NCBI GenBank assembly: GCA_030610945.1
Contig: JAUWQV010000002.1
Coordinates: 156,633 to 220,632 of the forward strand
Source: Methanocellales archaeon
GTDB taxonomy: Archaea > Halobacteriota > UBA148 > JAUWXC01
Direction of reading: 5' to 3'
Length of the DNA stretch: 64,000 bases
The position numbers were made by a program, and so were the translations under genes. Position 1 is the stretch's first letter; each line of letters begins with the position of its first letter. This document shows positions 10,622-64,000 of this stretch, piece after piece. The notes under the pieces were generated by a model that worked only from the letters and a program-made list of their open reading frames with translations, searched no databases and was not told where the DNA came from.

Positions 10622-10663
10622 ACATAATATTATATAGAAGTATTGGATGAGTAATATAATAAG

Positions 10664-11605
10664 ATGAAAGAATTATTATTACCTCGGGTTTTAGATGTAT
10701 TAAAACGCGCTGGATTTATTACGTCAGAACCATGTGAAGTTCGCCCCAGATGTTTTGATATGGTTGCAAGTAGGAGGCATGTATTACTATTGGTGAAGGT
10801 GCTTTTAAACATTGGCGGGTTAAGCATGGACTCTGCCAACGAGATGAGATGCCTTGCAGAGCGGCTTCACTGCTCCCCACTAATAGTTGGCAAGAGAACG
10901 TGCAACAAACCACTGGACAACGGCGTGGTATACCTCCGCTACGGCATCCCATCCATCAATCTGCAAACCCTGCACGACCTTTTTGTCTTTGAAATACCGC
11001 CATTGATTTACGCGGCGCCAGGCGGATTATACGTTAACATCGATGGCGATGCGCTGCAAGAAGCCAGAACGAGTCGGGGAATATCCCTTGGTGAGATTGC
11101 CTCGCAGTTAGGCGTGTCCAGAAGAGCCATCAACAAGTACGAAGAGGGCATGAATGCAACGATTGGAGTGGCGCTGAAACTCGAATCTTTTTTGAATATG
11201 GCATTGTCCCACCCCATAGACATCTTGCACCCAAGGTCCTATGATACGCCGTCACATAGCCAGAAGACCATATCTCCAGTTGAGCAGGCGGTCTTCATGA
11301 TGATGATTGATATTGGATTCGATGTGTTGCCCATGGTACAGGCACCGTTTAATGCACTGTCTCAAGACAAAACGGCCACAATACTCACAGGTGTCGGTAA
11401 ATATGGCAAGCATATGATCAAAAGGGCAAAACTGATGAGCAGCATATCAGATGTGACCGAGACGCAATCCGTGTTCATCATTGAAGGCACATCCAAGTCA
11501 TTACAAATAGACAATACCACCTTAGTCAAAAGAAGTGAGTTAGAATCCATGGAAGATTCAGATGAATTTGTTACGTTAATCCAGAGCAGAAAGATTGAAT
11601 TCTGA
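10664..11605 (+). CDS. Archaeal HTH (XRE-type) putative transcriptional regulator of about 310 aa
   Basis: A central HTH_3-like segment (SRGISLGEIASQLGVSRRAINKYEEG) sits in the architecture of the conserved euryarchaeal family of putative HTH-type regulators. Confidence 0.75.
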   Translation: MKELLLPRVLDVLKRAGFITSEPCEVRPRCFDMVASRRHVLLLVKVLLNIGGLSMDSANEMRCLAERLHCSPLIVGKRTCNKPLDNGVVYLRYGIPSINLQTLHDLFVFEIPPLIYAAPGGLYVNIDGDALQEARTSRGISLGEIASQLGVSRRAINKYEEGMNATIGVALKLESFLNMALSHPIDILHPRSYDTPSHSQKTISPVEQAVFMMMIDIGFDVLPMVQAPFNALSQDKTATILTGVGKYGKHMIKRAKLMSSISDVTETQSVFIIEGTSKSLQIDNTTLVKRSELESMEDSDEFVTLIQSRKIEF

Positions 11606-50937: not shown

Positions 50938-51014
50938 TGTCTGTGGACCTAATATTATACTTTTTAGTATAATTTTAAATACAACGAGCGCCATATATAG
51001 CACAGGTGGTATTA

Positions 51015-51215
51015 ATGCATATATCAGGCGAAGTCAAAAAGTGGGGCAACTCACTTGGCTTAGTGATTCCCGTGAAAATAGCCCGAAAACTGAGGATAAA
51101 AGAGGGTGAGTCGGTAGACGTGGACATAAGAAAGAAAGCCAAGATAGACGGATTCAGGATATTCGCAGGAGCGAGACATTTCAGAGAGGAGAAAGAGCAT
51201 GAAGATCTCTGGTAA
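51015..51215 (+). CDS. vapB: AbrB/SpoVT-type antitoxin (VapB-like)
   Basis: The ORF shows GEVKKWGNSLGLVIPVKIARKL, the swapped-hairpin motif. It lies directly upstream of a PIN gene. The track start is a GTG at 51006. Confidence 0.8.
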   Translation: MHISGEVKKWGNSLGLVIPVKIARKLRIKEGESVDVDIRKKAKIDGFRIFAGARHFREEKEHEDLW

Positions 51216-51224
51216 GGCGGTTTC

Positions 51225-51614
51225 ATGAAATACGTCATCGACACTTATGCGTGGGTTGAATACTTTATTGGGAGTGGGAAAGGTCAAAAAGTAAAAAAGA
51301 TCATCCATGACAAAGGAAATGAGATAGTAACGCCAGAATGTTGCCTTGCAGAACTGAAAGGATGGTGTATGCGAGAAAGAAGAGATTTTGAGAGAGCGTA
51401 TTTAATCATTAGGAGCGATTCGGAAATAGAGTCAATTTATACAGAAGACTGGCTAGAGTCTGCCGAGATCAAACACGAAGTGCGGAGAAAAATAAAAGAT
51501 TTTGGATTGATTGACTCTACCATAGTCGCAAAACAGAGGAGACATGGGTGCACGGTTCTAAGCGGAGACAAACATTTCAAGACACTCAAAAACGTTGAAT
51601 ATGTAGGCGATTAA
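51225..51614 (+). CDS. vapC: PIN-domain ribonuclease toxin (VapC)
   Basis: The ORF is 129 aa with the N-terminal YVIDTYAW acidic residue, a central E, DSTIVA, and a C-terminal SGDKHF. Confidence 0.85.
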   Translation: MKYVIDTYAWVEYFIGSGKGQKVKKIIHDKGNEIVTPECCLAELKGWCMRERRDFERAYLIIRSDSEIESIYTEDWLESAEIKHEVRRKIKDFGLIDSTIVAKQRRHGCTVLSGDKHFKTLKNVEYVGD

Positions 51615-51615
51615 G

Positions 51616-52176
51616 TCATCCCCTATATTCAATCTCTAGGGGCTTTGGAGGCATGGGGAACATGCTCTTGAATTTTTCAGGGTCTTCGGCCGCTTCCTTT
51701 AATTGCTTTCTGGTTATGTCTAAAAGGTCTTCAAGATAAATCGTCTCCGTCGCCTTCTTCACGCCCTCTGCCAGTTTTTGTATCTTTTCAACGTCTTTCT
51801 TGACTTTTTTATAGTCGCAGTTACCAGGACAACACTTCTTGATGTTGTTCAACGCCGAGAGATGTTTCTTTATCTTTTGTTTATCCAAAGATGCAAGCTG
51901 CGCCTCCAAAGAGTGCTTAAGTTCCTCTGTTTTAATTTCCATAGAAACTGGCATCGGCTTCACACCATCTTTCGTAGCGAATATCACTGGAAAATTCCCT
52001 AAGTATTCGCCATATGCAATGTCTAAACTTTCCCTCGCCTCTCTGGAATACAAAACCTTGTCCGCAACGCACTTAGAATTTCGGCACATGGAGCAGTATC
52101 TCGTGAATTTTTCTGCTGCCTGGTAAAAGTCGATGGTGCCGCTCAGAGGTGATTCCGCCCTCATTTCTAAGGTCAT
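51616..52176 (-). CDS. Hypothetical Cys-containing protein co-oriented with the upstream synthase gene
   Basis: The ORF is 186 aa and starts 2 nt after the upstream stop. It carries the motifs CSMCRNSKC and CCPGNCDYKK. I recognise no family. Confidence 0.5.
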   Translation of the reverse strand: MTLEMRAESPLSGTIDFYQAAEKFTRYCSMCRNSKCVADKVLYSREARESLDIAYGEYLGNFPVIFATKDGVKPMPVSMEIKTEELKHSLEAQLASLDKQKIKKHLSALNNIKKCCPGNCDYKKVKKDVEKIQKLAEGVKKATETIYLEDLLDITRKQLKEAAEDPEKFKSMFPMPPKPLEIEYRG

Positions 52177-52178
52177 AA

Positions 52179-53471
52179 CTACTCCCCCCTGGAGAGGTCA
52201 TCTTCCACGATGGGCGCGAACATGAAATACTTCTCAGTATATGCCTTAATCTCTTCATCGGATATGCACGAGCGCCTGCTCCCTTCTTCGTAAAGCCTTT
52301 GAATATCTCTATGGATGGTTTTTATGCGCGGGTCCTTTTTGTTAATCTTGGTTTTAACGCCCATCAACTCGGATAGCGCCTTCTCGACCTTCATCCGTAT
52401 GACTTCCGCACCGGATGTGTCACCGATTAATAGTTCGCGCTTTGCGCCGACCAGTTCCGGCGGAAACGGTTCGTATGTAAACGGATTTCTGATAACTCCA
52501 GCAGTATGAATGCCACTTTCATGGGCAAACACATTCTTGCCTACTACCGACTTGTTTCTTGGCACCCTGATTCCTACCTCGTCTTCCATATATCTCGCAA
52601 ATTTGACAAGATTTTTTAGATTGTATTTCTGGAATCCTTCGACCCTGTGTACCAAGAACAGCAGAACTTTTTCCAGTTCAGTATTTCCTGCCCTCTCCCC
52701 TATGCCCAGGAACGTCAAACTGGACCAGTTCGCACCGCACCAGTACCCTGCCATAGTATTTGCCATGCCAAACCCAAAATCATCATGCATATGCGTTTCT
52801 ATGTCTTTAACACCAACCTCTTTGAGCCGACTGATTATTTTGGGTATGCCATATGGTAAATCGACCTCTTGGAAAGGCAACCCCATATTTATGGTGTCGC
52901 AAATTCTGATGATTGCATCCGGTGCCCGGTCTATAATCTTTTTGACTAATGGAATGACAAAACCCTCTATATCTGCCCTTGTCGTGTCCTCGAGGTGGCA
53001 TCTGACGCGCAGGCCATGGTCAATGGCATAGTCCAAAGCATTTAGATACTTTTCCTCGGCTTCCTCTCTGCTCTTGAGTCTCATTTTATCGAATATGTGC
53101 ACATCAGAAACCGACATTAATATACCCGTCTCTTTTATACCGTCCATATTTATGGCTAAGTCTATGTCCTCTGGAACGGCCCTTGCCCATGCGGTCACCT
53201 CTGGAACTTCGTAGCTTTTATCCAGCATCGCTCTGGCTGCGACCTTATCCCTTTCGTTGAACAGGAACGTCTCGATTTTCTCAATTCCAATCTCGTGTAA
53301 AAATTCGTAGATTTGTAATTTGTGTTCTTTTTTGAGCACGATGCCTGGCATCTGGGCACCATCCCGTATGGTACTGTCACTTATCTTTGCCTCCATATTA
53401 TGAGGCAATTTTATCTTGGGCATCTCCTCGTACGTACGATACATCACATCATCTAATCGTGGAATGCACAT
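52179..53471 (-). CDS. HMGL-like domain protein of the homocitrate/isopropylmalate/citramalate (or Re-citrate) synthase family
   Basis: The 430-aa ORF has a TIM-barrel region in which [11 protein letters not shown] replaces the canonical DTTLRDGEQ. It also has HMHDDFG and HESGIH metal and active-site motifs. Confidence 0.8.
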
Positions 53472-53507
53472 AAAATTAACTATGAGAAGGGGCTAGATGA
53501 AAGAGCA

Positions 53508-54029
53508 ATGAAAAGAATCGTCGTTCTTCGTCTCGGACATCGCCCGTTTCGCGACCAGAGGATGACGACACATGTCGCCCTGGCAGCGCGAGCCCTCGGT
53601 GCAGAGGGCATATTACTCACTTCTGGCGATAAATCCATAGAACAGAATGTAGATGACGTCACGAAACGATGGGGGGGCGAGTTTTATGTCAGGGAGGGTG
53701 TTAATTGGAAAAGAGAAATCAAGACATGGAAGGATAGTGGCGGGAAGGTCTGCCATCTCACGATGTATGGGATTAATTTGCCCGATGTAATCGATGAGAT
53801 CAAAGATGCGGAAAAACTTATGGTCATTGTTGGCGCGGAAAAGGTCCCGGCAGAAGTATACGACCTGGCAGACTGGAACGTTGCCATTGGTCAGCAACCA
53901 CACTCCGAAGTGGCAGCGCTGGCAATTTTCCTTGACAGGTTGCAGGAAGGAGAAGAATTAAAACGTAGTTTTAAGAGAGGATTGAAGATTATTCCCCAGA
54001 GAAAAGGCAAGTGCGTAAAGAGGGGTTAA
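53508..54029 (+). CDS. trm56: tRNA (cytidine56-2'-O)-methyltransferase aTrm56 (SPOUT)
   Basis: The ORF is 173 aa. [28 protein letters not shown] is the Trm56 signature. Confidence 0.9.
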
Positions 54030-54116
54030 ATGAAGGCTGTACACATGGCGATGAAAAATGCGCTTTTGATTAAACACGCTGGGCAAGTTTAAAGTCCTTC
54101 GAGCGCGTTATTAATA

Positions 54117-54647
54117 ATGGTGACAAGTTTGGCACGATTGAAAGATGCAGTTGCCAGGGCATATCTTACAAAATTAATCGGTGAAGATGGCCTCACTATG
54201 GTCAACAAGGCACCGAAAGGCGAGATGCCCGATGAAAAAGTGGCAGAGTCAACGGGTATAGCTCTAAACACGGTGAGGCGGGCGCTGTACATTCTGTATG
54301 AAAACGGATTAGCATCGTATCGCAGGGAGAGGGATAAGGACAGTGGATGGCTAACCTACCTATGGCAGATCGATTTGAGCAATATATACGATGTTTTAGA
54401 TGCAGAGATGCAAAAGCTGTTAAAAAATCTCCAGAAACGATTGGATGCTGAAAAAGACAACATGTTTTACGCGTGCGTTGATGGTTGTGGACGATTTTTA
54501 TTTACCCTAGCGGCAGAAACTAATTTCGTTTGCCCGATTTGTGGAGCAACACTTGAATACCAGGATAACATCGAACTCGTTGAAGTGCTTGAAAAGAGGG
54601 TCAACGAAATACAAAAATGCGTGCGCACTACACAGGGCGCACAATGA
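54117..54647 (+). CDS. tfe: Transcription factor E alpha subunit
   Basis: The ORF is 176 aa with a winged helix (DEKVAESTGIALNTVRRALYILYENGL), WLTYLW, and a Zn ribbon (CVDGCG...CPICG). Confidence 0.85.
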   Translation: MVTSLARLKDAVARAYLTKLIGEDGLTMVNKAPKGEMPDEKVAESTGIALNTVRRALYILYENGLASYRRERDKDSGWLTYLWQIDLSNIYDVLDAEMQKLLKNLQKRLDAEKDNMFYACVDGCGRFLFTLAAETNFVCPICGATLEYQDNIELVEVLEKRVNEIQKCVRTTQGAQ

Positions 54648-54969
54648 TATTCTCGCCCTCCAACCATACCTTCACGTTGTTTTTTCCTTTGAGTATCGCA
54701 TTTTCTATTTCAATAGGGATGCCAACCACCCTGCGCCCGCCAGACTGAGTCAGCTTGCGCTCGAAGACGATGGAGGGTTGCTTAAATTTCTGCCATATCT
54801 CATCGATGTTCTCATCTGACTCCGGGTCAAAGTATATTTCGCCGCATTTTGGACAAATTTCGCCTGACAGGTTGACTATGACGAGTGTTCTGCCCCCGAT
54901 GGGCGCTGTGAAAGTCAAATCACTGGATTCGTCAACGTTTGCGCCGCATATCTGGCATGCATATCTCAT
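54628..54969 (-). CDS. YgiT/MqsA-type zinc-finger protein fused to an AbrB/SpoVT-like domain (antitoxin candidate)
   Basis: The ORF is 113 aa with CQICG...CPKCGEIYF, the YgiT pattern. The C-terminal GGRRVVGIPIEIENAILKG is a swapped-hairpin pattern. Confidence 0.6.
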   Translation of the reverse strand: MRYACQICGANVDESSDLTFTAPIGGRTLVIVNLSGEICPKCGEIYFDPESDENIDEIWQKFKQPSIVFERKLTQSGGRRVVGIPIEIENAILKGKNNVKVWLEGENIIVRPV

Positions 54970-55127
54970 GATTCCTCCAGCGTTATTAGCAGCAGGTTAT
55001 TTCGAACAGAAAACTTGAGCTTGACGTCCTCAGCGCTCACGCCCTCTTCCAGCATCCTGAGCTTGGCGCGCCCTGATATTCTGTAATTCCGTGATTTCCA
55101 TAGCTCCAGTGCTTGTGCTCTATCCAT
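54966..55127 (-). CDS. 53-aa mini-ORF with a DUF4258-like N-terminal motif (possible truncated toxin), not in the ORF track
   Basis: Hand translation gives MDRAQALELWKSRNYRISGRAKLRMLEEGVSAEDVKLKFSVRNNLLLITLEES. Its stop overlaps the downstream ATG (ATGA). The segment RISGRAKLRMLEEGVSAEDV resembles the DUF4258 HAxxRMxERGI motif. Confidence 0.4.
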   Translation of the reverse strand: MDRAQALELWKSRNYRISGRAKLRMLEEGVSAEDVKLKFSVRNNLLLITLEES

Positions 55128-55150
55128 TTTTACTCTCTTACTCTTTAATC

Positions 55151-55169
55151 ACTCTTATGATATAAGAGT
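55151..55169. promoter_or_regulatory. Perfect palindrome ACTCTTAT-GAT-ATAAGAGT in a divergent intergenic region
   Basis: The arms are 8 bp with a 3-nt spacer. The palindrome sits about 25-40 nt upstream of the mini-ORF start, so it is a plausible operator or TATA overlap. Confidence 0.4.
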
Positions 55170-55213
55170 TTTGGAAGAACAAGTTTAATAGCCCCTATGA
55201 ATGGTTTAATTCT

Positions 55214-55702
55214 GTGAAAAAAGAAGACGCCATCAATATGCTGAGAAAAGCGGGCTGCTCGGAGAAAGTAATCGACCATTGCGTAGCAGTCGCAGGACTC
55301 GCAAGCGAATTAGCCAAGCGTCATGATGCAGATCATAACCTAGTCACGACGGCTGCTCTACTTCACGACATCGGAAGGGGAAAAACGCACGGCATTGACC
55401 ATGCAGTGGTCGGTGCAGAGATTGCAAGGGATTTTGGCCTCGATGAGAGGATTGCTAAAATCATAGAGCGTCACATAGGTGCCGGGATCCCAGCCGACGA
55501 AGCCCGGAAATTGGGTTTGCCCAAAAAAGATTATGTACCCAAAACACTCGAGGAGAAAATCGTCGCGCACGCCGACAATCTCGTGATGGGTACCAAGAAG
55601 GTGTCCATCGACGAAGTAATCAAAAATATGCAGAAGACATTAGGAAAACGGCATCCAGCGATTCAACGAATGAGAAAACTTCATGCAGAATTATGCCAGT
55701 AA
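55214..55702 (+). CDS. HD-domain phosphohydrolase (TIGR00295-like)
   Basis: The 162-aa ORF starts at a GTG and shows ALLHDIGRGKTHGIDHAVVGAEIA and IIERHIGAGI. Confidence 0.85.
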   Translation: MKKEDAINMLRKAGCSEKVIDHCVAVAGLASELAKRHDADHNLVTTAALLHDIGRGKTHGIDHAVVGAEIARDFGLDERIAKIIERHIGAGIPADEARKLGLPKKDYVPKTLEEKIVAHADNLVMGTKKVSIDEVIKNMQKTLGKRHPAIQRMRKLHAELCQ

Positions 55703-55708
55703 TGTATA

Positions 55709-56212
55709 TCAGTAGACGGTAACGCTTTTTACAGACGATATCTTCATCAGCGCGTCCACGAGCGTTCCGGGAACTTTCGTATCCGTGATTATCGTGAGTT
55801 TCGGGTCATCCGTGAAATATGGGTCATCTGTTATAGCCTGCCGGATGCTGACACCATGCTTTGCAACAATAGTGGCGACGTTGCCCAGTATGCCTTTTTC
55901 CCTGGCATCGGTGGGAGTGATGACTATGACGCCAAGGTCGAGCGCCGGTGCGACGTCCCTCAAAAAAGCTACTGACTTTATGTTCTGAAGCACTTTTTTG
56001 AGCACGTCATCGCTCAACACCAATTCGGCCGTTGCATCAACGACCCTCCTGTCTACACCGACTTCTTTTGCAATCTGCGTGTGCGGGATTTCGATGCTAC
56101 CGGAAACCACCTTGCCCTTGGAATTTACCTGAAAACCACGCTCGATGAGGAGGCGAATCACTTTTTCTTGTGCAGGAAACTTGCTGAATTTTTCTATAAT
56201 TTTGGTCCACAT
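55709..56212 (-). CDS. ACT-domain regulator of amino-acid metabolism (COG2150-like)
   Basis: The likely start is MWTKIIEKF at 56212. It has an N-terminal wHTH-like part and a C-terminal ACT-like part (LGVIVITPTDAREKGILGNVATIVAKHGVSIRQ). Confidence 0.7.
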   Translation of the reverse strand: MWTKIIEKFSKFPAQEKVIRLLIERGFQVNSKGKVVSGSIEIPHTQIAKEVGVDRRVVDATAELVLSDDVLKKVLQNIKSVAFLRDVAPALDLGVIVITPTDAREKGILGNVATIVAKHGVSIRQAITDDPYFTDDPKLTIITDTKVPGTLVDALMKISSVKSVTVY

Positions 56213-56322
56213 ATCAACTTCACCGCTCAAAGATATACATTGAAGTCCCTGTACAAAGGTTTTGTGCGAGATGATAATTCTATGCACCCAAATCTTTATA
56301 TTTGAGAAAATGTCAATAGATA

Positions 56323-56568
56323 ATGGTAAAAATGGCAATAAAAACTGCCGAGATTGGGGGGAATGGGAGGGTTGTAATACCCAAAAATGTCAGAGAGGAC
56401 CTTGGTGTTAAGAAGGGCGACACACTATTATTTGAGAATATTTCAAAGGGAGAATTGCGGGTCAAGGTAATAAGGGGCGAGGACCCTTTTTTTAGAATTA
56501 TCCGCAATCCAAAAAAGGGCAAGGCGATTAAACCCTCTAAGCTGAAAGAGGAGCTCTGGTCAGGATGA
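56323..56568 (+). CDS. vapB: AbrB/SpoVT-type antitoxin (VapB-like)
   Basis: The ORF is 81 aa with GGNGRVVIPKNVREDLGVKKGD. It overlaps the PIN gene by 4 nt. Confidence 0.8.
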   Translation: MVKMAIKTAEIGGNGRVVIPKNVREDLGVKKGDTLLFENISKGELRVKVIRGEDPFFRIIRNPKKGKAIKPSKLKEELWSG

Positions 56569-56966
56569 TCTTCGTAGACTCCAACATTTTCATGTTCGCC
56601 AGCGACGAAAACTATCCTGAACACATGAATGCGAAGGGCTTTTTTGAAGAAAAAAGGGAAAAACTCTGTTTTAATACCATCATCGCCCTCGAATCCCATT
56701 ATGGATATCTAAGAAACTTGGGCGCAGAGGAGGCAGAAGTCAGGCTGAAGGCCATGCTAGGATCCAGGCTTCTCAAGTATTATGCCATAACCGAAGGAGA
56801 TTTGATTAAGGGGGCGGAGATCTCCCGGAGATATGACATAAAAACGAATGATGCCACAATAATTGCAAACATGCTGAGGAATGACATTGACAGGATAGCC
56901 ACAGACAACGTAAAGGATTTCAGCAAACATCCCAAGGTTAAGGTAACTAATCCCATCGAGCGGTAG
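56565..56966 (+). CDS. vapC: PIN-domain ribonuclease toxin (VapC)
   Basis: The ORF is 133 aa with an MIFVDSNIF acidic start, NDATIIA, and a C-terminal TDNVKDF. Confidence 0.85.
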   Translation: MIFVDSNIFMFASDENYPEHMNAKGFFEEKREKLCFNTIIALESHYGYLRNLGAEEAEVRLKAMLGSRLLKYYAITEGDLIKGAEISRRYDIKTNDATIIANMLRNDIDRIATDNVKDFSKHPKVKVTNPIER

Positions 56967-56995
56967 TTGATTTCGTCAGTAAAAATATGGACATT

Positions 56996-57577
56996 TTAAA
57001 GCTCAGATAGGGTGAAACAAGTTTTCTCATCATATTTCACGTTCCACAGATCGAATACCTCTCTAAAAGAGTCGGAATGTTCTACGGGAACCATGATGAC
57101 ACCTCTCCCTAAATAAACACCCCCGTATTTCTCTACCAATCCCTCTCCACTTTTTCTGCCCTTTAGGGTGTAGGTTAGTCTGACCTTTTCAGAGGCGGAG
57201 AGACCCTCCAATGAGTATGAGAAAATAACCACCGATCTCATACCAAGAAGCTCTGAGATGGGGCTGTTTCTTAAGACTGAGTAACCCTCATGAAAAATGG
57301 CCCTCCAAATTGGCTCTCCTTCAAATAGAGACTCTAAAGAAGAATACGTTACGTGGAATCTTTCTCCAAGAATGTTGCTCAGGTCTTTTACAATTTCTAT
57401 TCTTTCCTCTGGGGTTTTGGTGTGTCCAATTACGCAGACATCGATGTCTCTATACCTCTCCCCCCTAATGAAAGAGCCAAAGACAACTATGTCTATTAAA
57501 TCGTTATCTTCGACGAGTCTTTCAATCTTCCTTAAATCCAATGAGTTCCTTTGCCTTAAGAATTCCTTTTCTAACAT
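56996..57577 (-). CDS. Minimal nucleotidyltransferase (MNT) domain protein with an extra C-terminal domain of about 95 aa
   Basis: It has a GS...D.D motif (VVFGSFIRGERYRDIDVCVI). The C-terminal half (VVIFSYSLEGLSASEKVRLTYTLKGRK...) is not part of standard MNT. Confidence 0.7.
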   Translation of the reverse strand: MLEKEFLRQRNSLDLRKIERLVEDNDLIDIVVFGSFIRGERYRDIDVCVIGHTKTPEERIEIVKDLSNILGERFHVTYSSLESLFEGEPIWRAIFHEGYSVLRNSPISELLGMRSVVIFSYSLEGLSASEKVRLTYTLKGRKSGEGLVEKYGGVYLGRGVIMVPVEHSDSFREVFDLWNVKYDEKTCFTLSEL

Positions 57578-57857
57578 AGCTCACGTCCTCTTCAGAGACG
57601 AACTCATCATACGTCTTGGTATAGAATGTGAAGATGTCGTCATACACCCCATATAGCTCTGGTAGATGTCTTCTCAGCATCCTAAACCTCTGAGTGTGAT
57701 TTCCCGCCATCCTGCCAGTTTTCTTCAGTAGCGCATGATCGCACAGTTCAACCAAGGCTTTGAAATAGTTGCTTATCGCAACCCGAAGAGCCTTCTCACT
57801 ATATGCTCTTTCTCCCCACTCGTAAAACTCCTTGAAAGCCTCTTCCTGGATCGTCAT
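57522..57857 (-). CDS. HEPN-like domain protein
   Basis: The 111-aa ORF is all-helical with an R-x4-6-H-like segment (RFRMLRRH). It is adjacent to the MNT gene. Confidence 0.6.
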   Translation of the reverse strand: MTIQEEAFKEFYEWGERAYSEKALRVAISNYFKALVELCDHALLKKTGRMAGNHTQRFRMLRRHLPELYGVYDDIFTFYTKTYDEFVSEEDVSYVRKGILKAKELIGFKED

Positions 57858-57880
57858 CCTACTATCCTATTTCTGTTAAT

Positions 57881-57966
57881 ATGTTAACATTAAGGATTTA
57901 TAAACCTTTCTATGTTAATATAATAACAATGGTCGGATGTAGTGGCATCTACGTTAACATGTTAAC
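57881..57966. promoter_or_regulatory. GTTAAC-centred palindromes in the divergent region between the HEPN/MNT genes and the cytochrome gene
   Basis: ATGTTAACAT lies at 57881-57890, a half-site TATGTTAATA at 57911-57920, and a perfect 14-bp GTTAACATGTTAAC at 57953-57966. Confidence 0.4.
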
Positions 57967-58151
57967 AAAGAACGAGGTTAAAGTGCCTTATCTCCCATAA
58001 TCCTTAATAACTCTTATATAGCATTTTACTTAATAACTTATAATTAACTTATATTACATAGAGGGGGCATAATAGAGGGGGGACATAACGACAGAGAGCG
58101 AGTGTCCTGACCCTATTTCACCATCGAATAACAGGCCAAATAGCAGAGGGG

Positions 58152-61100
58152 ATGGAACGCTTGGAAATGGATCGCAGAATAGGTAGAAGGACCATAGGAC
58201 CGTTGGTATCATTCCTAGCCTTGGCTTTTCTGCTTTTTTCCTTTTATGGAACTGCGACGCCGACATCTTTCAGCGATGGAGATGGCACCACCCCTAACAT
58301 TTTGATTATTTACAACACCAGTGGTAGCCTCGCAGGTAGTGGAGCGCCTCCAGGGACCTCCGCAGAAAACATGAACATCACCCTCTCCGATGCAGGGGGG
58401 AACGTGACCATCTGGAACATCACGGCAGAGGGAAGGCTGCCAACCCTTGCTGAAGCGAATTTCTACAACGCGACCATATATACCCAGGGAACGAGAAACC
58501 AGACCCTGAACGATGAAACAATGGCATTTTTAGATGCCTACCTGTATGGAGATGTCGGGCACCTTATCATCGAGGGGCAAAACGTCCTGAATGATGCAGG
58601 GTTGATAGAGGGCAACACGACGTTCGTCGAGAGGGTCCTTCGCTGCGACTCCAGCGATATAATCAACATAACAGATGTCGGCGTGTACACAAACTTGGGG
58701 GTCTCAGATTCCACGCATCCGATTACGTATGGGCTTACCTCTAATACCAGCACCACATACAGCATAGGACTGCAAGACGATATCCAAGCCATTCCCCCTG
58801 CCAAGATAGTCATAGACGGTGCGACTGATACCCGATCTGGCTTAGGTGCAGTCAACACATGGGAGAACACGACCACAGAGCACAGGATGGTGTACATGGC
58901 GTTCCCGTGGAATGAGAACAGCACGTACGATACCATAGACGACCAGACGTTCAGAGACGAACTCTTGATTAACTGCGTCAACTGGGTGCGGGATTTCAAC
59001 AAGCCAACGGCGAATATAACTCACCCTGCCCAGGATGCACAGCTTTCAGGCACCGCGACCGTCAATGGCACCGCATCGGACATAGATGACGGGACCGGAG
59101 TCAGGAAAGTAGAGCTCACCTGGGATAATGGCCTGAACTGGCATCTTGTCGATGGGAATACATCCTGGACATACCAGTGGCACACCGCAGCGGTTCCGAG
59201 TGCGAATTACACCTTAATCGCCAGGGCAACGGACTATGCAGGCAATTACAATGATTCTGTAGGCGTCAACGTCACCGTATACAATGCGGGCGGCGAGGCA
59301 AAGCCATACGGTCCGCCATCGATCATAGTGACCGTCAACAGATACATCATCCTCGATGACCCTGTGGCCGGCACTGAATCAACTGGATATCGAAATCCAA
59401 ATAATATTGGCTATGCTAAATGGGATGGCGAAAGCACAACCATCAGGGTGCACGTGCTTGCGATAAACAACACAGGACTGGCAGATGTCAATTTGAACGT
59501 GACATTTAAACTCAAGAAGCCTAATGCTACCGTTCTTGATACGCAATATATACTCACCGATAGCAACGGCCTTGCAAAATATTCCTATGACCTCAATGCC
59601 CAGAACCACTGGGGAGTGTGGACGGTTACCGTCAATGCCACACAATTCAATAAGACCGGCAGTGAAACGAACACGATAGAGAATACCACGTTCATCTACA
59701 ACTGGTGGGGATGCGGGGACTGCCATAGTTCTTCGTGGAAGAAAGTTGAGGACTGGGTTACACCGGTGACGCCAAATTCGCCATATACAAAGGGATATGA
59801 CAAAATGCACACGGTGGCCTGGAGACATGATCTAGACGACAATAACTGCCTAAAGTGCCACAAGTCATACGGCACCGGCTCTGCAGGATATCAAACCCCA
59901 GCAGGTCGACATAGCCAGAATAGTAGTAATCAGCAGTATTGTCAGGACTGCCATGGAACTGGTACTTATATAAGATCTCAACCTACTGGCATCCCTGACA
60001 TGCCCTCGTGTTATGCCGCGAGTTGTCATCCGCAGTATAACACTCACCCGGCAGAGATGCACACGTTGAACGACTCTATGACCGACTCTCGAGATCCACC
60101 TCAACCTCGAATGTTCTATTCTGGAGACCCGTATGATCCAAGCAAGCCCATGACCGCACACGAGCCGAGTCCGCGTACGAGTGTGCCGTGTATATCCTGT
60201 CATGGCATAGGGCACAAAATTCATTCATTCTATCCAGACGGGGCTGGAAACAACGTGACCGAACTCGAACTGTGTATCTGCTGCCATACCGGCTACGTGA
60301 ACCACAACAATGTGATTAGTTGCACAGAGGAGTGCCATTGTCAGGATGCACATAATATGTCTTATCTCAATTTTACAGGAAATCTGACGTCGGACAGGAC
60401 CCAGGCAGTGAACTGCACATCCTGTCATCAGACATCTGCGTTGCCTGCAATACATCATGGAGTGGACGTGCGCAAGCCGCTGAATCACAGCAATAACAAC
60501 AGCGGTCAGCGTTGGGGCGATTACTGGACGGATGACCTGGGGTCGTGCCTCTATTGCCATGGTGACACGATGCATACCGGATTATCGTTGGGATGGGTGA
60601 GGCGTTTCCAGGGAAACAACGTCCCGAACTCGGCCATAGACATAGAAGAGTCCAACTGGTGTGCCAGTTGCCACTGGGTAGGCTATAAAAGCGGGGATGC
60701 CAACTACACCACCATGACCGATACGTTTGAGGAAGCAGGACTCCCCCTACCGCCTGAGATCACCAATGGCACAGACTGGAACGGCATAGATAGCGGGTAC
60801 TACAATCATACGCTGGGCAATTATAATGATGAGGGATGCAAGGACTGTCACTATGACCCATTTACGACGGACAAGATGACCGAGTTCACGCACAACGTGT
60901 CCGAAGGGATAGAGGCCGATTATGATTGCGTCAGATGTCACGACCTGGGCAAGAACGCACCAGAGCACGTGGATGTTACCGTGTTGAAGACCAGTACACA
61001 TGTAGATCTGAATAAAAACGCAGTGAACGTCTCAAGGTTGACCGACGATATTGACAAAGCCTGCTGGGGGTGCCATGGTGAAGATGACAACGAAGACGGG

Positions 61101-64000
61101 CTTGCCAACGAGACCGAACAGCCCACAGGTGTGCATCCTACCAACTATGAGACGCCAAGAAATTGTCTGGATTGTCACAACAATACCGCGGCATCCAACT
61201 TTAGTGCAAAGCAGACATACGGGCACACATGGTACAGCACCAAGATAACGACGCCTGCTGTGACATGGTGTACTGACTGCCATGCCAAATCCGAGATGAT
61301 AATGCCGAACAGTGACCCGGATGAAGGCACAATCAATGCCACATCATCTCACTATGAGCGGAAAAGGACGGATTTAAAGGCTCTCATAGGCACGGACGCA
61401 TACTGCAACTACTGTCACCAGAACTCCACCACAGTATTCCCATTTGCCGTTGAAGATAATAAAACGAGAAGTGACCACGCAAGACAGAATTCTCCGCAAT
61501 GTACCAACTCCTCCTGTCATGGACCGTATGAGTTACATGAAGAAGGATTGCAAAACCCGAGATGGTTCACCGATACGAATTGTACCGAGTGCCATTCCGA
61601 GAAATTCCACAATGGCACCGTTACATGTACTGATTGTCATCTTGGAACTCCTGCTGACATACATCCAACCCACTACCTGCAACACGACGGAGTGACCTAT
61701 TCGACAGCGAAGGAGGTCGCAGCAGACTGTCATGACTGCCATGAGAGTACCAAGGCGGATGCCACGATAGGAGAGACTTCACCTCAGGTGCCTACACAAC
61801 ATCACAGCGATGATGTAACAAACGGCACGAAATGGGGCAACTATTGGAAGTATACAAAGCAGGCCACTACGTTTGTCACGAGCTATGCCAATACGACTGG
61901 AACGGTCGCTAACTTCACGAATGCCCAGAGCACCGCTACCAATTACACGACCATTGCAGAGGAGAATGTCAGCGGCGTGTACAGATATAACGTGACGTTT
62001 GACTTTACTGACGTAGTCGATTACGTCAACAAGACGCTGGAGCTCGACTACAAGATACATGGCGAGAGCTGCACGATGTTTGTGTACAACGGAACTGCCT
62101 GGAACGAGAGGGCAACGCTGTATAAAGGGGCATTTACACCTACCACCTATGAACTGACATCCGATGAGTACGTCAACGGCAACGTCTCGGTACGATTTAT
62201 CGACGAATCCCAGGCCAGCGATACCGTTGCAAGCAGCATAGACGTGAAGTATTTCTACGTTCACTCGGACACAGGATTGTTATATCCCTGTGGATATTGC
62301 CACCATCCCAATATGCACTACGAAGACGCACTGGGAATGCCATCTAGTTACAAGGGCAATAACATCGAAAATCAATCGATAACCGCCGGCAACTGGTGTG
62401 CAGGCTGCCATTACCAAAGCTATACCAGTGGAGCCGCCACCTATGACGATACGGTGGTGGCATTCCAGAATGCCGGTTTGTCGGTACCGCCAGAAATCAC
62501 GGGAAATGCTACATATGGTGCCAATCAAAGCAATCCGGATTATTACAACCACTCTGGAATCGCTGGTTTCAATGATTCTGATTGCCATGGTTGTCATGGC
62601 TCACTTGTATCAATTGATGCAGGCACGACAAATTTCGTGCACAACGTATGTGAGGGTAAATTTGGTCCTGATTGTATATCCTGTCATGATGTTGGGAGAG
62701 ATGTTGCCAGGGTGAACGTGACTGCGATGAACCAGTCAGACTCGATTCATGCTAATGTGAATAGTGCTGCCAACGATACCACTGGAAATCTGGACAACAA
62801 GATGTGCTGGGGATGCCATCAGAGCGATGGTAGTCAGCCTGCTGCAGATCAGCATCCGGATAAGGTTAGCGATCCATACACATGCTGGGAATGTCACAAT
62901 GGTACCAGCAAGCCGTACGTGAACGTGAGCGATGCATTGAACGTCACAGAGCACTTCAGATCTGGGGAGAACATTACTGCAGTCTCTAGTGCGGATAACA
63001 ACACATGGTCATGTTTGGGGTGTCATAACAAAGATGAGATGATGGTTTCATACACAGAACCGGATGCCATAGACACTACTTTATCTCTTACTTCCCACTA
63101 TGGTAAGAAGAGGACAGACTTAAGCGATCAAGTAAATACTGACCCATATTGTAACTATTGTCACAATAATGTATCAACGGTGTTTCCGTTCGCTGTTGCA
63201 CACAAGAAAGGAATCTTCGAGCACACCGCCAATAGTACAGCAGATGTCACAAACGCCACGACTCTCTCGTGTAACAATACGAACTGCCATGCTACTGGAA
63301 GAATACACAACGACACACTAACGGTTCCCTCTGTGTCGGCCTGGACATCTGGCAAGAGTGATTACTGTGCTCCGTGTCACTCTCCTACGGACGCGATCTC
63401 TAATCTAAACATTTCCAACGAGGCACACAACACCACCCAGGCCACGATCAGCGACTGCGGCTACTGCCACAACGCCGACGTGCTGGCAACTGGCAACGCA
63501 TATCAGAATCTCCACTCCGACAATCTGACCAAAGCAGATGCAACCCATGATAACTGCAGTGAGTGCCATGTAGACACTGCATGGGTGCAACGCGAGATAT
63601 CCGAGCACACCGACAATACCAGTGCAGACATCTCCCGCTCTTATCTCACATGCGACAACAGCAGCTGTCATGCATCGAGCCAGCCACACAGCAGCTCCCT
63701 TAACAATGGATCGACATTGTCTTCTGGCTGGTCTGGTGCCTCCAACAGCGTATGTGCCCCGTGCCATGAACAGGGCGGGACCTCGATAAACGTTTACACG
63801 CACAACGTCACATGGACTGGCATCGATGACTGTGCCCAGTGCCACAACTCCGAGACACATGGTCAACCTGATGCATACCAAGACATACACTCCACCAACC
63901 TCACCGCAGGCGGCAACGCCAGCTTTAACGACTGTTACGAATGTCACCAAGATACCGGGCTCGCCTTTGTTTCAAAAACCATCCTCGAGCACACCAACGA
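58152..64000 (+). CDS. Giant secreted or signal-anchored multiheme c-type cytochrome (5' complete, 3' runs off the window)
   Basis: Hand translation finds no stop from the ATG at 58152 to the window end (1,949 codons). The nearest upstream in-frame stop is at 58086.
- N-terminus: MERLEMDRRIGRRTIGPLVSFLALAFLLFSFYG, a signal peptide or anchor.
- Heme motifs: 31 CxxCH plus 5 CX3-4CH, the first at 59712.
- Glycosylation: about 80 N-x-S/T sequons.
The ORF is absent from the track, presumably because it has no stop. Confidence 0.9.
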   Translation, partial: MERLEMDRRIGRRTIGPLVSFLALAFLLFSFYGTATPTSFSDGDGTTPNILIIYNTSGSLAGSGAPPGTSAENMNITLSDAGGNVTIWNITAEGRLPTLAEANFYNATIYTQGTRNQTLNDETMAFLDAYLYGDVGHLIIEGQNVLNDAGLIEGNTTFVERVLRCDSSDIINITDVGVYTNLGVSDSTHPITYGLTSNTSTTYSIGLQDDIQAIPPAKIVIDGATDTRSGLGAVNTWENTTTEHRMVYMAFPWNENSTYDTIDDQTFRDELLINCVNWVRDFNKPTANITHPAQDAQLSGTATVNGTASDIDDGTGVRKVELTWDNGLNWHLVDGNTSWTYQWHTAAVPSANYTLIARATDYAGNYNDSVGVNVTVYNAGGEAKPYGPPSIIVTVNRYIILDDPVAGTESTGYRNPNNIGYAKWDGESTTIRVHVLAINNTGLADVNLNVTFKLKKPNATVLDTQYILTDSNGLAKYSYDLNAQNHWGVWTVTVNATQFNKTGSETNTIENTTFIYNWWGCGDCHSSSWKKVEDWVTPVTPNSPYTKGYDKMHTVAWRHDLDDNNCLKCHKSYGTGSAGYQTPAGRHSQNSSNQQYCQDCHGTGTYIRSQPTGIPDMPSCYAASCHPQYNTHPAEMHTLNDSMTDSRDPPQPRMFYSGDPYDPSKPMTAHEPSPRTSVPCISCHGIGHKIHSFYPDGAGNNVTELELCICCHTGYVNHNNVISCTEECHCQDAHNMSYLNFTGNLTSDRTQAVNCTSCHQTSALPAIHHGVDVRKPLNHSNNNSGQRWGDYWTDDLGSCLYCHGDTMHTGLSLGWVRRFQGNNVPNSAIDIEESNWCASCHWVGYKSGDANYTTMTDTFEEAGLPLPPEITNGTDWNGIDSGYYNHTLGNYNDEGCKDCHYDPFTTDKMTEFTHNVSEGIEADYDCVRCHDLGKNAPEHVDVTVLKTSTHVDLNKNAVNVSRLTDDIDKACWGCHGEDDNEDGLANETEQPTGVHPTNYETPRNCLDCHNNTAASNFSAKQTYGHTWYSTKITTPAVTWCTDCHAKSEMIMPNSDPDEGTINATSSHYERKRTDLKALIGTDAYCNYCHQNSTTVFPFAVEDNKTRSDHARQNSPQCTNSSCHGPYELHEEGLQNPRWFTDTNCTECHSEKFHNGTVTCTDCHLGTPADIHPTHYLQHDGVTYSTAKEVAADCHDCHESTKADATIGETSPQVPTQHHSDDVTNGTKWGNYWKYTKQATTFVTSYANTTGTVANFTNAQSTATNYTTIAEENVSGVYRYNVTFDFTDVVDYVNKTLELDYKIHGESCTMFVYNGTAWNERATLYKGAFTPTTYELTSDEYVNGNVSVRFIDESQASDTVASSIDVKYFYVHSDTGLLYPCGYCHHPNMHYEDALGMPSSYKGNNIENQSITAGNWCAGCHYQSYTSGAATYDDTVVAFQNAGLSVPPEITGNATYGANQSNPDYYNHSGIAGFNDSDCHGCHGSLVSIDAGTTNFVHNVCEGKFGPDCISCHDVGRDVARVNVTAMNQSDSIHANVNSAANDTTGNLDNKMCWGCHQSDGSQPAADQHPDKVSDPYTCWECHNGTSKPYVNVSDALNVTEHFRSGENITAVSSADNNTWSCLGCHNKDEMMVSYTEPDAIDTTLSLTSHYGKKRTDLSDQVNTDPYCNYCHNNVSTVFPFAVAHKKGIFEHTANSTADVTNATTLSCNNTNCHATGRIHNDTLTVPSVSAWTSGKSDYCAPCHSPTDAISNLNISNEAHNTTQATISDCGYCHNADVLATGNAYQNLHSDNLTKADATHDNCSECHVDTAWVQREISEHTDNTSADISRSYLTCDNSSCHASSQPHSSSLNNGSTLSSGWSGASNSVCAPCHEQGGTSINVYTHNVTWTGIDDCAQCHNSETHGQPDAYQDIHSTNLTAGGNASFNDCYECHQDTGLAFVSKTILEHTN

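What the first reader, a model, noticed from the sequence alone, without database searches (positions are those of the whole stretch)
58152..64000. Giant multiheme c-type cytochrome, open-ended and missing from the ORF track
**What the sequence shows**
- Frame 3 on the plus strand is open from the ATG at 58152 to the end of the window. That is 1,949 codons, and the gene is still incomplete.
- The product starts with a basic region followed by a hydrophobic signal or anchor.
- A heme-free extracellular-looking region of 520 aa follows.
- After that I counted 31 canonical CxxCH heme-c attachment sites and 5 extended CX3-4CH sites.
- The supplied track lists only short minus-strand ORFs here, and these are mirror artefacts.

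**Interpretation**
- Proteins of this size and heme load are known from ANME-2 and Methanoperedens and from iron-cycling Archaeoglobales. There they are proposed to act as extracellular electron-transfer conduits.
- Very few have been characterised, and their domain architectures vary between lineages.
- Together with the F420 and H4MPT genes in this window, this suggests a methane- or alkane-cycling or metal-reducing archaeon with an outward-facing redox wire.
Basis: partly seen in the sequence, partly recalled or inferred. Interest (0 to 1): 0.85.

Follow-up and report, generated by a model that had tools for sequence, protein, structure and literature searches.

The report
Giant multiheme cytochrome, strain-variable locus
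The open reading frame is real and encodes the first 1,949 residues (36 heme sites) of a giant secreted cytochrome of the type that methane-oxidising archaea are thought to use as an external electron wire, but its host is a different archaeal lineage, whose closest sequenced relative is a single 987-kb record, and close relatives lack, truncate or swap the gene.

Summary
**Observation: confirmed.**
- Frame +3 is open from 58152 to the window end: 1,949 codons with no stop. The other five frames carry 31-114 stops.
- It has 31 CxxCH, 1 CX3CH and 4 CX4CH motifs, the first at residue 521.
- There is one N-terminal hydrophobic segment.
- It has 83 N-x-S/T sequons against 32±5 expected.

**What it is.**
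- It belongs to the giant modular archaeal multiheme cytochromes known from ANME-2 and Methanoperedens. An exhaustive search found 319 cluster representatives.
- The unit is a ~455-aa module with 12 hemes. All 12 heme motifs and 9-10 further histidines are invariant across module copies.
- dN/dS against an 82%-identical relative is 0.15-0.37.
- Most likely function (inferred): a glycosylated extracellular heme wire. The direction of electron flow is unknown.

- The host is not ANME or Methanoperedens. Its aCPSF1 is 99% identical to CP061209.1 (a 987-kb record), 76% to Methanocellales MAGs and 71% to Methanoperedens.
- The locus is hypervariable:
  - CP061209.1 has a deletion scar and no cytochrome.
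  - One metagenome contig carries the gene with two in-frame stops.
  - Another contig carries a different gene of more than 3,538 aa behind the same promoter region.
  - Met12 has a 177-aa, 5-heme cytochrome at this position.
- The 3' end could not be recovered, and both structure models failed.

**Verdict:** a new member of a known kind, of moderate interest.

The parts
57866..57967 (.). Three 24-nt direct repeats spaced exactly 39 nt apart. Each holds a GTTAAYATRTTAAC-type palindrome and looks like an operator site upstream of the cytochrome gene.
   Evidence: The repeats are family D1 and the palindromes are I1, I2 and I4. Copies 2 and 3 are conserved in the related contig L011. A regulatory role is inferred only.
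58006..58060 (+). AT-rich, promoter-like stretch with a TATA-like TTATATAG at 58014-58021. It is conserved upstream of three different cytochrome alleles.
   Evidence: The stretch aligns between the window, L001 and L011. The blastn matches start at 58006 for L001 and cover 57912-58058 for L011.
58152..64000 (+). Giant multiheme c-type cytochrome gene, incomplete at the 3' end (1,949 codons visible, 36 heme-attachment motifs).
   Evidence: dN/dS against L001 is 0.15-0.37. The family was found.
58152..58259 (+). Signal peptide or N-terminal membrane anchor (residues 1-36). An alternative start lies at 58167.
   Evidence: It holds the five top-scoring 19-residue hydropathy windows of the visible protein (Kyte-Doolittle 1.8-2.0, starting at residues 13-18).
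58260..59003 (+). Heme-free N-terminal domain of unknown fold (residues 37-284). It was found only here and in P0001.
   Evidence: There is no Pfam hit at E<=10 and no hit in the word-index search. The AlphaFold2 model reached pLDDT 35 and is not usable. dN/dS is 0.147 for residues 33-385.
59004..59216 (+). Ig-like domain (Big_7, residues 285-355).
   Evidence: Pfam PF17957, E=7.7e-9, above the curated cut-off.
59304..59696 (+). MG2-like beta-sandwich 'head' ending in FIYNWWGC (residues 385-515). In many family members this is the start of the mature protein.
   Evidence: Pfam MG2 scores 25.2 bits, below the cut-off. The region is collinear with the extreme N-terminus of P0008 (E=4e-45). The same head is visible in P0013, P0019 and P0024.
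59697..60518 (+). Heme 'head' region (residues 516-789) with 8 heme motifs, including CX4CH at 620 and CX3CH at 724.
   Evidence: Motif positions are. CTEECH aligns with a CxxCH in P0008.
60519..61763 (+). 12-heme module, copy A (residues 790-1204).
   Evidence: phmmer finds this module up to five times in tandem in relatives. All 12 motifs are invariant in alignments A3 and A4.
61764..62279 (+). Heme-free insert of about 170 aa (residues 1205-1376). It holds Tyr1367 (62250-62252), which is a TAA stop in relative L001.
   Evidence: There is no Pfam hit. Homologous inserts occur in L003 and L006 and, by eye, in P0007, P0009, P0011 and P0015.
62280..63641 (+). 12-heme module, copy B (residues 1377-1830).
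   Evidence: It matches module A at E=6e-56 and is 56% identical to L011 residues 686-1250.
63642..64000 (+). A further 4-heme unit (residues 1831-1949, motifs at 1834, 1868, 1894 and 1928). The ORF runs off the window.
   Evidence: Motif positions are. The region is part of the TIGR03508 DmsE-type match at residues 1736-1935. The aligned relatives P0009 and L011 continue far beyond this point.
56323..57577 (.). Toxin-antitoxin genes directly upstream: MazE (56323-56568, +), PIN (56565-56966, +) and a nucleotidyltransferase (56996-57577, -). They mark the edge of the variable segment.
   Evidence: Pfam assignments are.

Best explanation
**What it is**
The ORF encodes the N-terminal 1,949 residues of a giant, exported, heavily N-glycosylated c-type multiheme cytochrome. 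It belongs to the modular family known from ANME-2 and Methanoperedens.

**Shown by tool results**
- The frame is intact.
- It has 36 heme-attachment motifs.
- It has a single N-terminal hydrophobic segment.
- Sequons are enriched 2.6-fold over shuffled sequence.
- It is built from an MG2-like head plus ~455-aa, 12-heme modules that recur in tandem in relatives.
- All 12 motifs and 9-10 non-motif histidines are invariant across module copies.
- The gene has evolved under purifying selection.

**Inferred from established knowledge of c-type cytochromes and of MtrC, OmcS and ANME cytochromes**
- The protein is exported by Sec.
- Hemes are attached outside the membrane by Ccm.
- Nearly all hemes are bis-His ligated and packed into a continuous chain, one heme per ~38 residues in the heme regions.
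- That chain carries electrons over tens of nanometres between the cell surface and an external partner, such as a mineral, another cell or a shuttle.
- The heme-free N-terminal domains (orphan domain, Ig, MG2-like) and the ~170-aa insert are most likely attachment or spacing elements.

**Open points**
- The direction of flow (export or uptake) is open.
- The C-terminal anchoring is open. Relatives end either in an S-layer domain plus a transmembrane helix, or in a short basic tail.

**Population context**
The gene is an accessory, fast-rearranging payload of a 'cytochrome locus' downstream of a MazE-PIN pair.
For: - **ORF and motifs:**
- **Pfam:** Cytochrome_C7 (six stretches, E=1e-28), Cytochrom_c3_2 and Big_7.
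- **Family size:** 319 representatives at E<=1e-3 and 153 at E<=1e-30, up to 5,724 aa long.
- **Named homologues:** 32-45% identical in ANME-2 and Methanoperedens MAGs, with 59-65 heme motifs.
- **Module repeats:**
- **Invariant residues:**
  - All 12 heme motifs are invariant in both alignments.
  - His97, 125, 161, 236, 278, 320, 340 and 429 are invariant in both.
  - His206 and His364 are invariant in A3 only.
  - His19 is invariant in A4 and nearly invariant in A3.
- **Profile against solved structures:** the best hits are extracellular electron-transfer cytochromes, namely OcwA 6qvm (3e-7), chain A of the MtrCAB entry 6r2q (1.5e-6) and MtrF 3pmq (4e-6).
- **Relatives' domains:**
  - Relatives carry MtrC/MtrF domain II/IV hits.
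  - P0008 and P0017 also carry the S-layer domain PF07752.
  - P0008 and P0017 end in a hydrophobic C-terminal segment.
- **Sequons:** 83 against 32.4±5.1 in shuffles. Family members have 3.0-6.4 per 100 aa.
- **Selection:** dN/dS is 0.15-0.37 in every region.
- **Literature:** ANME large cytochromes and their proposed conduit role are described in PMC9012536.
Against: - There is no experimental or expression evidence.
- The 3' end is missing, so anchoring is unknown.
- The cytochrome c maturation genes of this genome could not be checked.
- Both AlphaFold2 models were unusable (pLDDT 35 and 39), so a continuous heme chain is not shown structurally.
- The window protein itself does not reach the Pfam MtrC/MtrF model.
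- The matches to solved structures are weak and partly driven by the heme motif itself.
- The closest sequenced genome lacks the gene and a close relative carries it with stop codons. It is therefore dispensable in at least some strains.
Confidence: 0.72

Rival explanations
1. The gene is a decaying or dispensable accessory gene. It is intact in the visible part but no longer used, and is on its way to the loss seen in relatives.
For: - CP061209.1 (99% aCPSF1 identity) keeps only the first ~127 nt of the PIN gene and has no cytochrome at this position.
- L001 has TAA at Tyr1367 and TGA inside a CxxCH motif.
- The part of the gene beyond 64000 is unseen.
Against: - The frame has 1,949 codons without a stop (P of about 1e-41 by chance).
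- All module heme motifs and the conserved histidines are retained.
- dN/dS is 0.15-0.37, including 0.245 for the stretch that lies behind the stop in L001. Those stops are therefore recent, or sequencing errors.
Confidence: 0.1
2. The protein is a multiheme protein whose main role is not long-range conduction. It could act as an electron store (capacitor), a redox buffer, or a surface enzyme that reduces a soluble substrate.
For: - Sequence alone cannot separate a wire from a store. Heme count and density fit both.
- The profile also weakly matches NrfA, cytochrome c554 and NapB-type proteins.
Against: - There is no CxxCK motif and no match to octaheme or HAO-type enzyme families.
- There are nearly as many invariant non-motif histidines as hemes per module. 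That leaves little room for an open catalytic heme.
- The best matches among solved structures are terminal extracellular reductases and conduits.
Confidence: 0.12
3. The long ORF is an assembly chimera or a recent fusion of two separate cytochrome genes joined near residue 1370.
For: - L001 ends its called gene exactly there, with TAA at residue 1367.
- The part after residue 1377 is closer to a different allele, 56% identical to L011 residues 686-1250.
Against: - The independently assembled L001 is collinear across the same junction in the same frame.
- P0007, P0009, P0011 and P0015 read through the equivalent insert-to-module junction. The motif is (R/K)Y(L/F)(Y/F)(V/I)(H/Y)(S/T)D, and the Tyr that is a stop in L001 is conserved (read by eye).
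- The downstream piece has no start codon or signal peptide of its own.
Confidence: 0.04

Closest known systems
Large ANME multiheme cytochromes, types A, B and C (Chadwick et al. 2022, PMC9012536; first noted by McGlynn et al. 2015)
   Same: - The size class is the same: 20-86 hemes and thousands of residues.
- Both mix CxxCH with extended CX3-4CH sites.
- Both have heme-free N-terminal domains and are proposed to act as extracellular conduits.
- The family found with the window module includes proteins with the type-A hallmarks. P0008 and P0017 have an S-layer domain and a C-terminal hydrophobic helix.
- It also includes one protein (P0089) whose N-terminal ~900 residues are repeat-rich and, by eye, resemble a beta-helix (not tested).
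   Different: - In the visible 1,949 residues there is no S-layer domain, no peptidase-M6-like domain and no pectin-lyase-like domain.
- The N-terminal 350 residues (orphan domain plus Big_7) were found only here and in P0001.
- No CcmF gene lies next to it on the upstream side.
- The host is not an ANME lineage.
Giant cytochromes of Candidatus Methanoperedens MAGs (loci L003, L004, L006; 2,646-3,189 aa, 59-65 heme motifs)
   Same: They carry the same 455-aa, 12-heme module, repeated in tandem, at 28-38% identity over hundreds of residues. Some carry the same kind of heme-free insert.
   Different: - They have a different N-terminus, with the first heme at residue 218 instead of 521.
- They end in a short basic tail with no transmembrane segment.
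- They are always followed by an ~820-970-aa FG-GAP beta-propeller gene. Whether that gene follows here is unknown.
MtrC/MtrF/OmcA decaheme cytochromes and OcwA (bacterial terminal extracellular reductases)
   Same: - The module profile matches OcwA, chain A of the MtrCAB entry 6r2q, and MtrF at E of 1e-6 to 1e-7.
- Relatives hit Pfam MtrC/MtrF domain II/IV.
- The proposed job is the same: moving electrons across and away from the cell surface.
   Different: - The similarity is remote and partly carried by the heme motif.
- The window protein does not reach the Pfam model.
- There is no outer membrane or porin partner in an archaeon.
- It has at least 3.6 times as many hemes in one chain.
177-aa, 5-heme cytochrome ATZ60873.2 of Met12 ('Ca. 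Serpentinarchaeum', PMC11176372)
   Same: - It occupies the same genomic slot, directly after the ACT-like gene, MazE and PIN. That block is 83% identical in DNA to window 55706-56962.
- It shares a 5' leader stretch and its first five codons with the giant allele of L011.
   Different: - It is tiny, with a PGF-CTERM-like tail.
- It has no specific similarity to the window protein beyond the heme motifs.
- The Met12 authors state that none of Met12's five cytochromes resembles the ANME giants.

Membership tests
c-type multiheme cytochrome | Several CxxCH (or extended CXnCH) heme-attachment motifs, far more than chance would give | tested here: met
   There are 31 CxxCH, 1 CX3CH and 4 CX4CH motifs. 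Shuffled sequences give 0.15 CxxCH.
c-type multiheme cytochrome | An export signal, because heme attachment takes place outside the cytoplasmic membrane | tested here: met
   A basic stretch is followed by a hydrophobic one at residues 13-36, which gives the five highest 19-residue hydropathy windows in 1,949 residues. No dedicated signal-peptide predictor was available.
c-type multiheme cytochrome | Conserved distal ligands (a second His per heme) | tested here: met
   Nine or ten invariant non-motif histidines accompany the 12 hemes of each module across 17-copy alignments.
c-type multiheme cytochrome | Cytochrome c maturation genes (ccm) in the genome | not testable with these tools
   None was seen among the window ORFs scanned. 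Met12 is listed as having ccmA, ccmB, ccmC and ccdA.
Giant modular archaeal cytochromes (ANME-2 / Methanoperedens type) | The ~455-aa, 12-heme module, homologous and in the same motif order | tested here: met
   The window holds two copies. The module matches relatives at E of 1e-45 to 1e-104, and all 12 motifs are invariant.
Giant modular archaeal cytochromes (ANME-2 / Methanoperedens type) | More than 1,000 aa and more than 20 hemes in one polypeptide | tested here: met
   At least 1,949 aa and at least 36 motifs are visible.
ANME MHC type A | S-layer domain (PF07752) with a heme motif in its linker | tested here: inconclusive
   It is absent from the visible 1,949 residues. In relatives P0008 and P0017 it lies near the C-terminus, which is beyond the window here.
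ANME MHC type A | C-terminal transmembrane helix | not testable with these tools
   The ORF runs off the window, and attempts to extend it failed.
ANME MHC type B | N-terminal heme-free peptidase-M6-like domain and an adjacent CcmF2 gene | tested here: not met
   Residues 33-284 have no Pfam hit at E<=10. The upstream neighbours are toxin-antitoxin and housekeeping genes. The downstream side is unseen.
ANME MHC type C | [quoted passage not shown] | tested here: not met
   There is no such Pfam hit. The N-terminus holds an orphan domain, Big_7 and an MG2-like domain instead.
MtrC/OmcA/MtrF family | Match to the MtrC/MtrF domain II/IV model (PF22113) or to the solved proteins | tested here: inconclusive
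   The window protein gives no PF22113 hit at E<=1. Homologues hit it strongly. The module profile matches MtrF at 4e-6 and OcwA at 3e-7.

The most novel reading that the evidence does not exclude
**The reading**
The slot downstream of the conserved ACT-like/MazE/PIN block is a 'cytochrome cassette' locus. It occurs in archaeal lineages whose closest sequenced relatives have ~1-Mb genome records.

**Evidence that does not exclude it**
- One promoter and leader region drives interchangeable extracellular cytochromes.
- These range from 177 aa with 5 hemes (Met12) to more than 3,538 aa with more than 81 hemes (L011).
- Modules are shuffled, truncated or deleted between near-identical strains.

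**What it would imply**
- Strains would be rapidly retuning how they exchange electrons with minerals or partners.
- In a Met12-like, mcr-less host this could be electron uptake rather than export.
- A single gene would take up about 0.6-1.1% of the genome.
Probability: 0.3. Interest if true: 0.7.

Novelty: new member of a known kind. Interest (0 to 1): 0.48.

Why it matters
**What is already known.** Giant multiheme cytochromes are the leading candidates for how archaea move electrons to minerals or partner cells, yet none has been characterised. The kind of protein is therefore already known.

**What this case adds.**
- The family occurs outside ANME, Methanoperedens and the Archaeoglobales. 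The host's closest sequenced relative is a single 987-kb record.
- Four natural variants of one locus are available: absent, truncated, this allele and a permuted allele of more than 3,500 aa. The locus could therefore be a natural experiment on which parts of such a wire are needed.
- If the host resembles the mcr-less, electron-fed Met12 archaeon, the protein could bear on electron uptake from rock.

**Limits.** All functional statements are still inferences from sequence.

Tried and rejected
**Extending the 3' end (all failed).** The source record is a 226,273-bp NCBI contig, but it was never returned.
- Exact look-ups of window proteins found nothing or only a 1.1-kb contig.
- The genome scan and the metagenome scan found only relatives at 32-45% identity.

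**Structure (both models unusable).**
- The AlphaFold2 model of residues 33-520, built from 2 sequences, reached pLDDT 35.
- The model of module A, built from 17 sequences, reached pLDDT 39.
- I therefore ran no fold search.

**Sequence searches that gave nothing.**
- The full-length sequence search against solved structures gave no hit.
- The word-index search with the N-terminal domain gave no hit and did not even recover P0001. It is therefore not evidence that the domain is absent elsewhere.
- Pfam at E<=10 found nothing for residues 33-284 or for the 1205-1376 insert.
- My guess that the N-terminal domain is a ThuA or GATase1-like alpha/beta fold could not be tested.

**Searches for the origin of the related records.** Literature searches for CP061209, GCA_026016205 and JGI sample 3300029811 found nothing.

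**Ideas rejected.**
- Selenocysteine or pyrrolysine read-through of the stops in L001. They are TAA and TGA, and I have no supporting evidence for recoding.
- Horizontal origin judged from composition. GC3 is 0.565 against 0.506±0.033 for the neighbouring genes, only about 1.8 SD higher.
- Specific homology between Met12's small cytochrome and the window protein. Only the heme motifs match.
Full report
**1.

Translating 58152-64000 on the plus strand gives 1,949 codons with no stop. The nearest upstream in-frame stop is at 58086-58088. At the local base composition an open frame of this length has a chance probability of about 1e-41. The other five frames carry 31-114 stops, with longest open stretches of 60-188 codons. 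The short minus-strand ORFs listed are therefore shadows of the long frame.

- 31 CxxCH motifs.
- One CX3CH (CTEECH, residue 724).
- Four CX4CH (residues 620, 1117, 1707, 1834).
- The first motif is at residue 521.
- Shuffled sequences give 0.15 CxxCH on average.

The N-terminus, with its basic stretch followed by a hydrophobic one, holds the five highest-scoring hydropathy windows in the visible protein.

Two additions:
- There are 83 N-x-S/T sequons against 32.4±5.1 in composition-preserving shuffles. This is what one expects of an archaeal surface glycoprotein.
- A second ATG at 58167 is the start called for the closest homologue and may be the true start.

**2. It is a real gene under selection**

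The only close homologue is P0001, which is 82% identical and lies on a 5.5-kb JGI contig, L001. Nei-Gojobori dN/dS between the window and L001 is 0.15-0.37 in every region.

L001 has two in-frame stops:
- TAA where the window has TAT (Tyr1367).
- TGA inside the motif that is CISCH in the window.

The stretch behind the first stop still shows dN/dS of 0.245 at dS of 0.44. The stops are therefore recent mutations or sequencing errors. Other family members read straight through the equivalent junction and keep that tyrosine (sequences, read by eye). This argues against the long ORF being a chimera.

**3. What family it belongs to**

*Direct domain hits.* Pfam finds Cytochrome_C7 (six stretches, E=1e-28), Cytochrom_c3_2, a Big_7 Ig domain (residues 285-355) and a sub-threshold MG2 domain (residues 430-501). 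NCBIfam gives a weak DmsE-type decaheme match at residues 1736-1935.

*Family size and members.* An exhaustive HMMER search with residues 515-1714 found 319 cluster representatives at E<=1e-3 and 153 at E<=1e-30. Many are 2,000-5,700 aa long. A scan of species-representative genomes found homologues at 32-45% identity. They lie in an ANME-2 cluster archaeon and in four Methanoperedens or Methanoperedenaceae MAGs. The three full-length Methanoperedens proteins are 2,646-3,189 aa and carry 59-65 heme motifs.

*The repeating module.* The unit is a ~455-aa module with 12 hemes. The window has two copies (residues 790-1204 and 1377-1830), and relatives have up to five in tandem.

*Conservation across copies.* I built two alignments of 17 module copies each. 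In both, all 12 heme motifs are invariant, including the one that is CX4CH here and CxxCH in Methanoperedens. Nine or ten non-motif histidines are also invariant. It also fits bis-His ligation of nearly every heme.

*The head region.* Residues 385-789 (an MG2-like domain ending in FIYNWWGC, plus eight hemes) are collinear with the extreme N-terminus of family member P0008 (E=4e-45).

*Other family architectures.* P0008 and P0017 go on to an S-layer domain (PF07752) and end in a hydrophobic C-terminal segment. This is the 'ANME MHC type A' layout of Chadwick et al. 2022 (PMC9012536).

*Similarity to solved structures.* A profile of the module weakly matches the solved extracellular electron-transfer cytochromes. 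The hits are OcwA (3e-7), chain A of the MtrCAB entry 6r2q (1.5e-6) and MtrF (4e-6). Relatives hit Pfam's MtrC/MtrF domain II/IV.

*What is particular to this protein.* Two features stand out:
- The first ~350 residues: an orphan domain plus Big_7, with no hit.
- The ~170-aa heme-free insert between the modules. The insert does occur in some relatives.

**4. How it most likely works**

Shown by tool results:
- An export signal.
- Dense, conserved heme sites.
- Conserved second histidines.
- Sequon enrichment.
- Modular homology to proteins proposed as archaeal conduits.

Inferred from established knowledge of cytochrome c biogenesis and of MtrC, OmcS and ANME-type cytochromes:
- The protein is exported by Sec.
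- The protein is N-glycosylated.
- It folds so that the 36 or more hemes form one chain.
- That chain passes electrons over tens of nanometres to or from an external partner.
- The non-heme domains serve attachment or spacing.

I put this at about 0.7. Neither the direction of electron flow nor the C-terminal anchoring can be read from the window.

**5.

The window is ordinary archaeal chromosome. It encodes the thermosome, aCPSF1, a proteasome subunit, ProRS, FtsZ, archaeal SAM synthetase, aTrm56, TFE, CofD and a pterin-binding H4MPT-type gene.

Its aCPSF1 compares with other genomes as follows:

| Compared with | Identity |
|---|---|
| CP061209.1 ('Methanosarcinales archaeon', a single 987,146-bp record) | 99% |
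| A few unnamed MAGs | 87-88% |
| 'Methanocellales archaeon' MAGs | 76% |
| Methanocella | 73% |
| Methanoperedens and ANME-2 | 71% |

No mcr, ccm or second cytochrome gene is visible in the window (and the Pfam scans). The genome itself could not be searched.

**6. The locus is hypervariable**

This was the unexpected part. Four versions of the locus were found.

- **CP061209.1 (L012).** It is syntenic with window 50001-56690 at 94% DNA identity. It then keeps only the first ~127 nt of the PIN gene and runs on to argininosuccinate lyase, GatD and GatE. That is a deletion scar, and there is no cytochrome.
- **JGI contig L011.** It is syntenic at 92-95% up to the PIN gene and lacks the nucleotidyltransferase gene. 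It shares the AT-rich promoter-like stretch (57912-58058).
  - It then carries a different giant cytochrome. The called gene is 3,538 aa and runs to the contig end. In the 3,219 aa seen there are 76 CxxCH and 5 extended motifs.
  - Its parts are a permutation of the window's parts:
    - Window residues 1377-1947 match L011 686-1250 at 56% identity.
    - Window residues 376-764 match L011 1838-2216.
    - Window residues 718-1239 match L011 2306-2832.
- **L001, from the same sample.** It has the window-type allele with stop codons and without the MazE/PIN/nucleotidyltransferase genes.
- **Met12 ('Ca. Serpentinarchaeum').** This is a 1.07-Mb, mcr-less archaeon proposed to be an electron-fed acetogen (PMC11176372).
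  - The same ACT-like/MazE/PIN block is 83% identical in DNA to the window.
  - It is followed by a 177-aa, 5-heme cytochrome with a PGF-CTERM-like tail.
  - That small gene and L011's giant share a leader stretch and their first five codons.
  - The Met12 authors state that none of Met12's five cytochromes resembles the ANME giants.

**7. Comparison with known systems, and novelty**

The kind of protein is known: the large ANME, Methanoperedens, Geoglobus and Ferroglobus cytochromes. This is a new member with its own N-terminal architecture, and such variation is normal in the family. It cannot be filed under ANME types A, B or C:
- No M6-like or pectin-lyase-like domain is present (not met).

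What is new is the host lineage and the variation at the locus.

**8. What failed**
- Every attempt to extend the 3' end failed.
- Both AlphaFold2 models had pLDDT below 40, so I ran no fold search.
- The full-length sequence search against solved structures gave no hit.
- The origin of CP061209.1 and of the JGI sample could not be traced in the literature.

**Verdict**

The proposed conduit role is plausible but inferred. The host inference is not supported. I score interest at about 0.5. The protein class is already described, but the strain-variable 'cytochrome locus' in this lineage deserves follow-up.

Noticed in passing
window 55706-58151; L012 (CP061209.1) 12380-12720; L011 6790-7680; L001 1-940: The segment between the ACT-like gene and the cytochrome differs in every relative. 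CP061209.1 keeps only ~127 nt of the PIN gene and then runs into argininosuccinate lyase. L011 lacks the nucleotidyltransferase gene, and L001 lacks MazE, PIN and the nucleotidyltransferase. The area is rich in toxin-antitoxin genes (two MazE-PIN pairs, an MqsA-like gene and a nucleotidyltransferase).
   Followed up: yes
L013 (Met12, CP017966.2) 9132-11068: Met12 shares the ACT-like/MazE/PIN block at 83% DNA identity and follows it with a 177-aa, 5-CxxCH cytochrome. That protein ends in a Pro/Glu-rich linker plus IPGFGAISAIVLLLAAAFLAMRRR, which looks like a PGF-CTERM archaeosortase signal. Its leader stretch and first five codons (MHDDG) are identical to those of L011's giant cytochrome.
   Followed up: partly
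window 57866-57967: Three 24-nt direct repeats lie exactly 39 nt apart, each with a GTTAAYATRTTAAC palindrome. They sit between the divergent 111-aa ORF and the cytochrome promoter-like region, and two of the copies are conserved in L011. They may be a regulator binding array.
   Followed up: partly
L003 8024-10498; L004 15241-18162; L005 14503-17388; L006 9580-12378: In all four Methanoperedens-family loci the giant cytochrome is directly followed by an ~820-970-aa FG-GAP beta-propeller protein. It has Ig-like domains and a FIMAH or dockerin C-terminus, so it may be a conserved partner. Whether it follows the window gene is unknown.
   Followed up: partly
L011 3318-4376 compared with window 54032-54042: L011 has an extra ATP-grasp gene (352 aa) inserted between aTrm56 and TFE. 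The window and CP061209.1 lack it.
   Followed up: no
window 58152-64000: The database search did not return the window's own full-length protein, although other proteins of the same 226-kb NCBI contig are in the collection. The gene may be unannotated or marked as a pseudogene in the source record, or it may be masked. GC3 of the gene is 0.565 against 0.506±0.033 for neighbouring genes.
   Followed up: no
L007 (Planctomycetota MAG contig, 1,406 bp): A 35%-identical fragment of the same cytochrome module sits on a very short contig binned as a Planctomycetota bacterium. This could be a binning error or a bacterial family member.
   Followed up: no
window 57522-57857 (-): A 111-aa ORF next to the nucleotidyltransferase gene has no Pfam hit. 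It may be the HEPN-like partner of a toxin-antitoxin pair, but this was not verified.
   Followed up: partly
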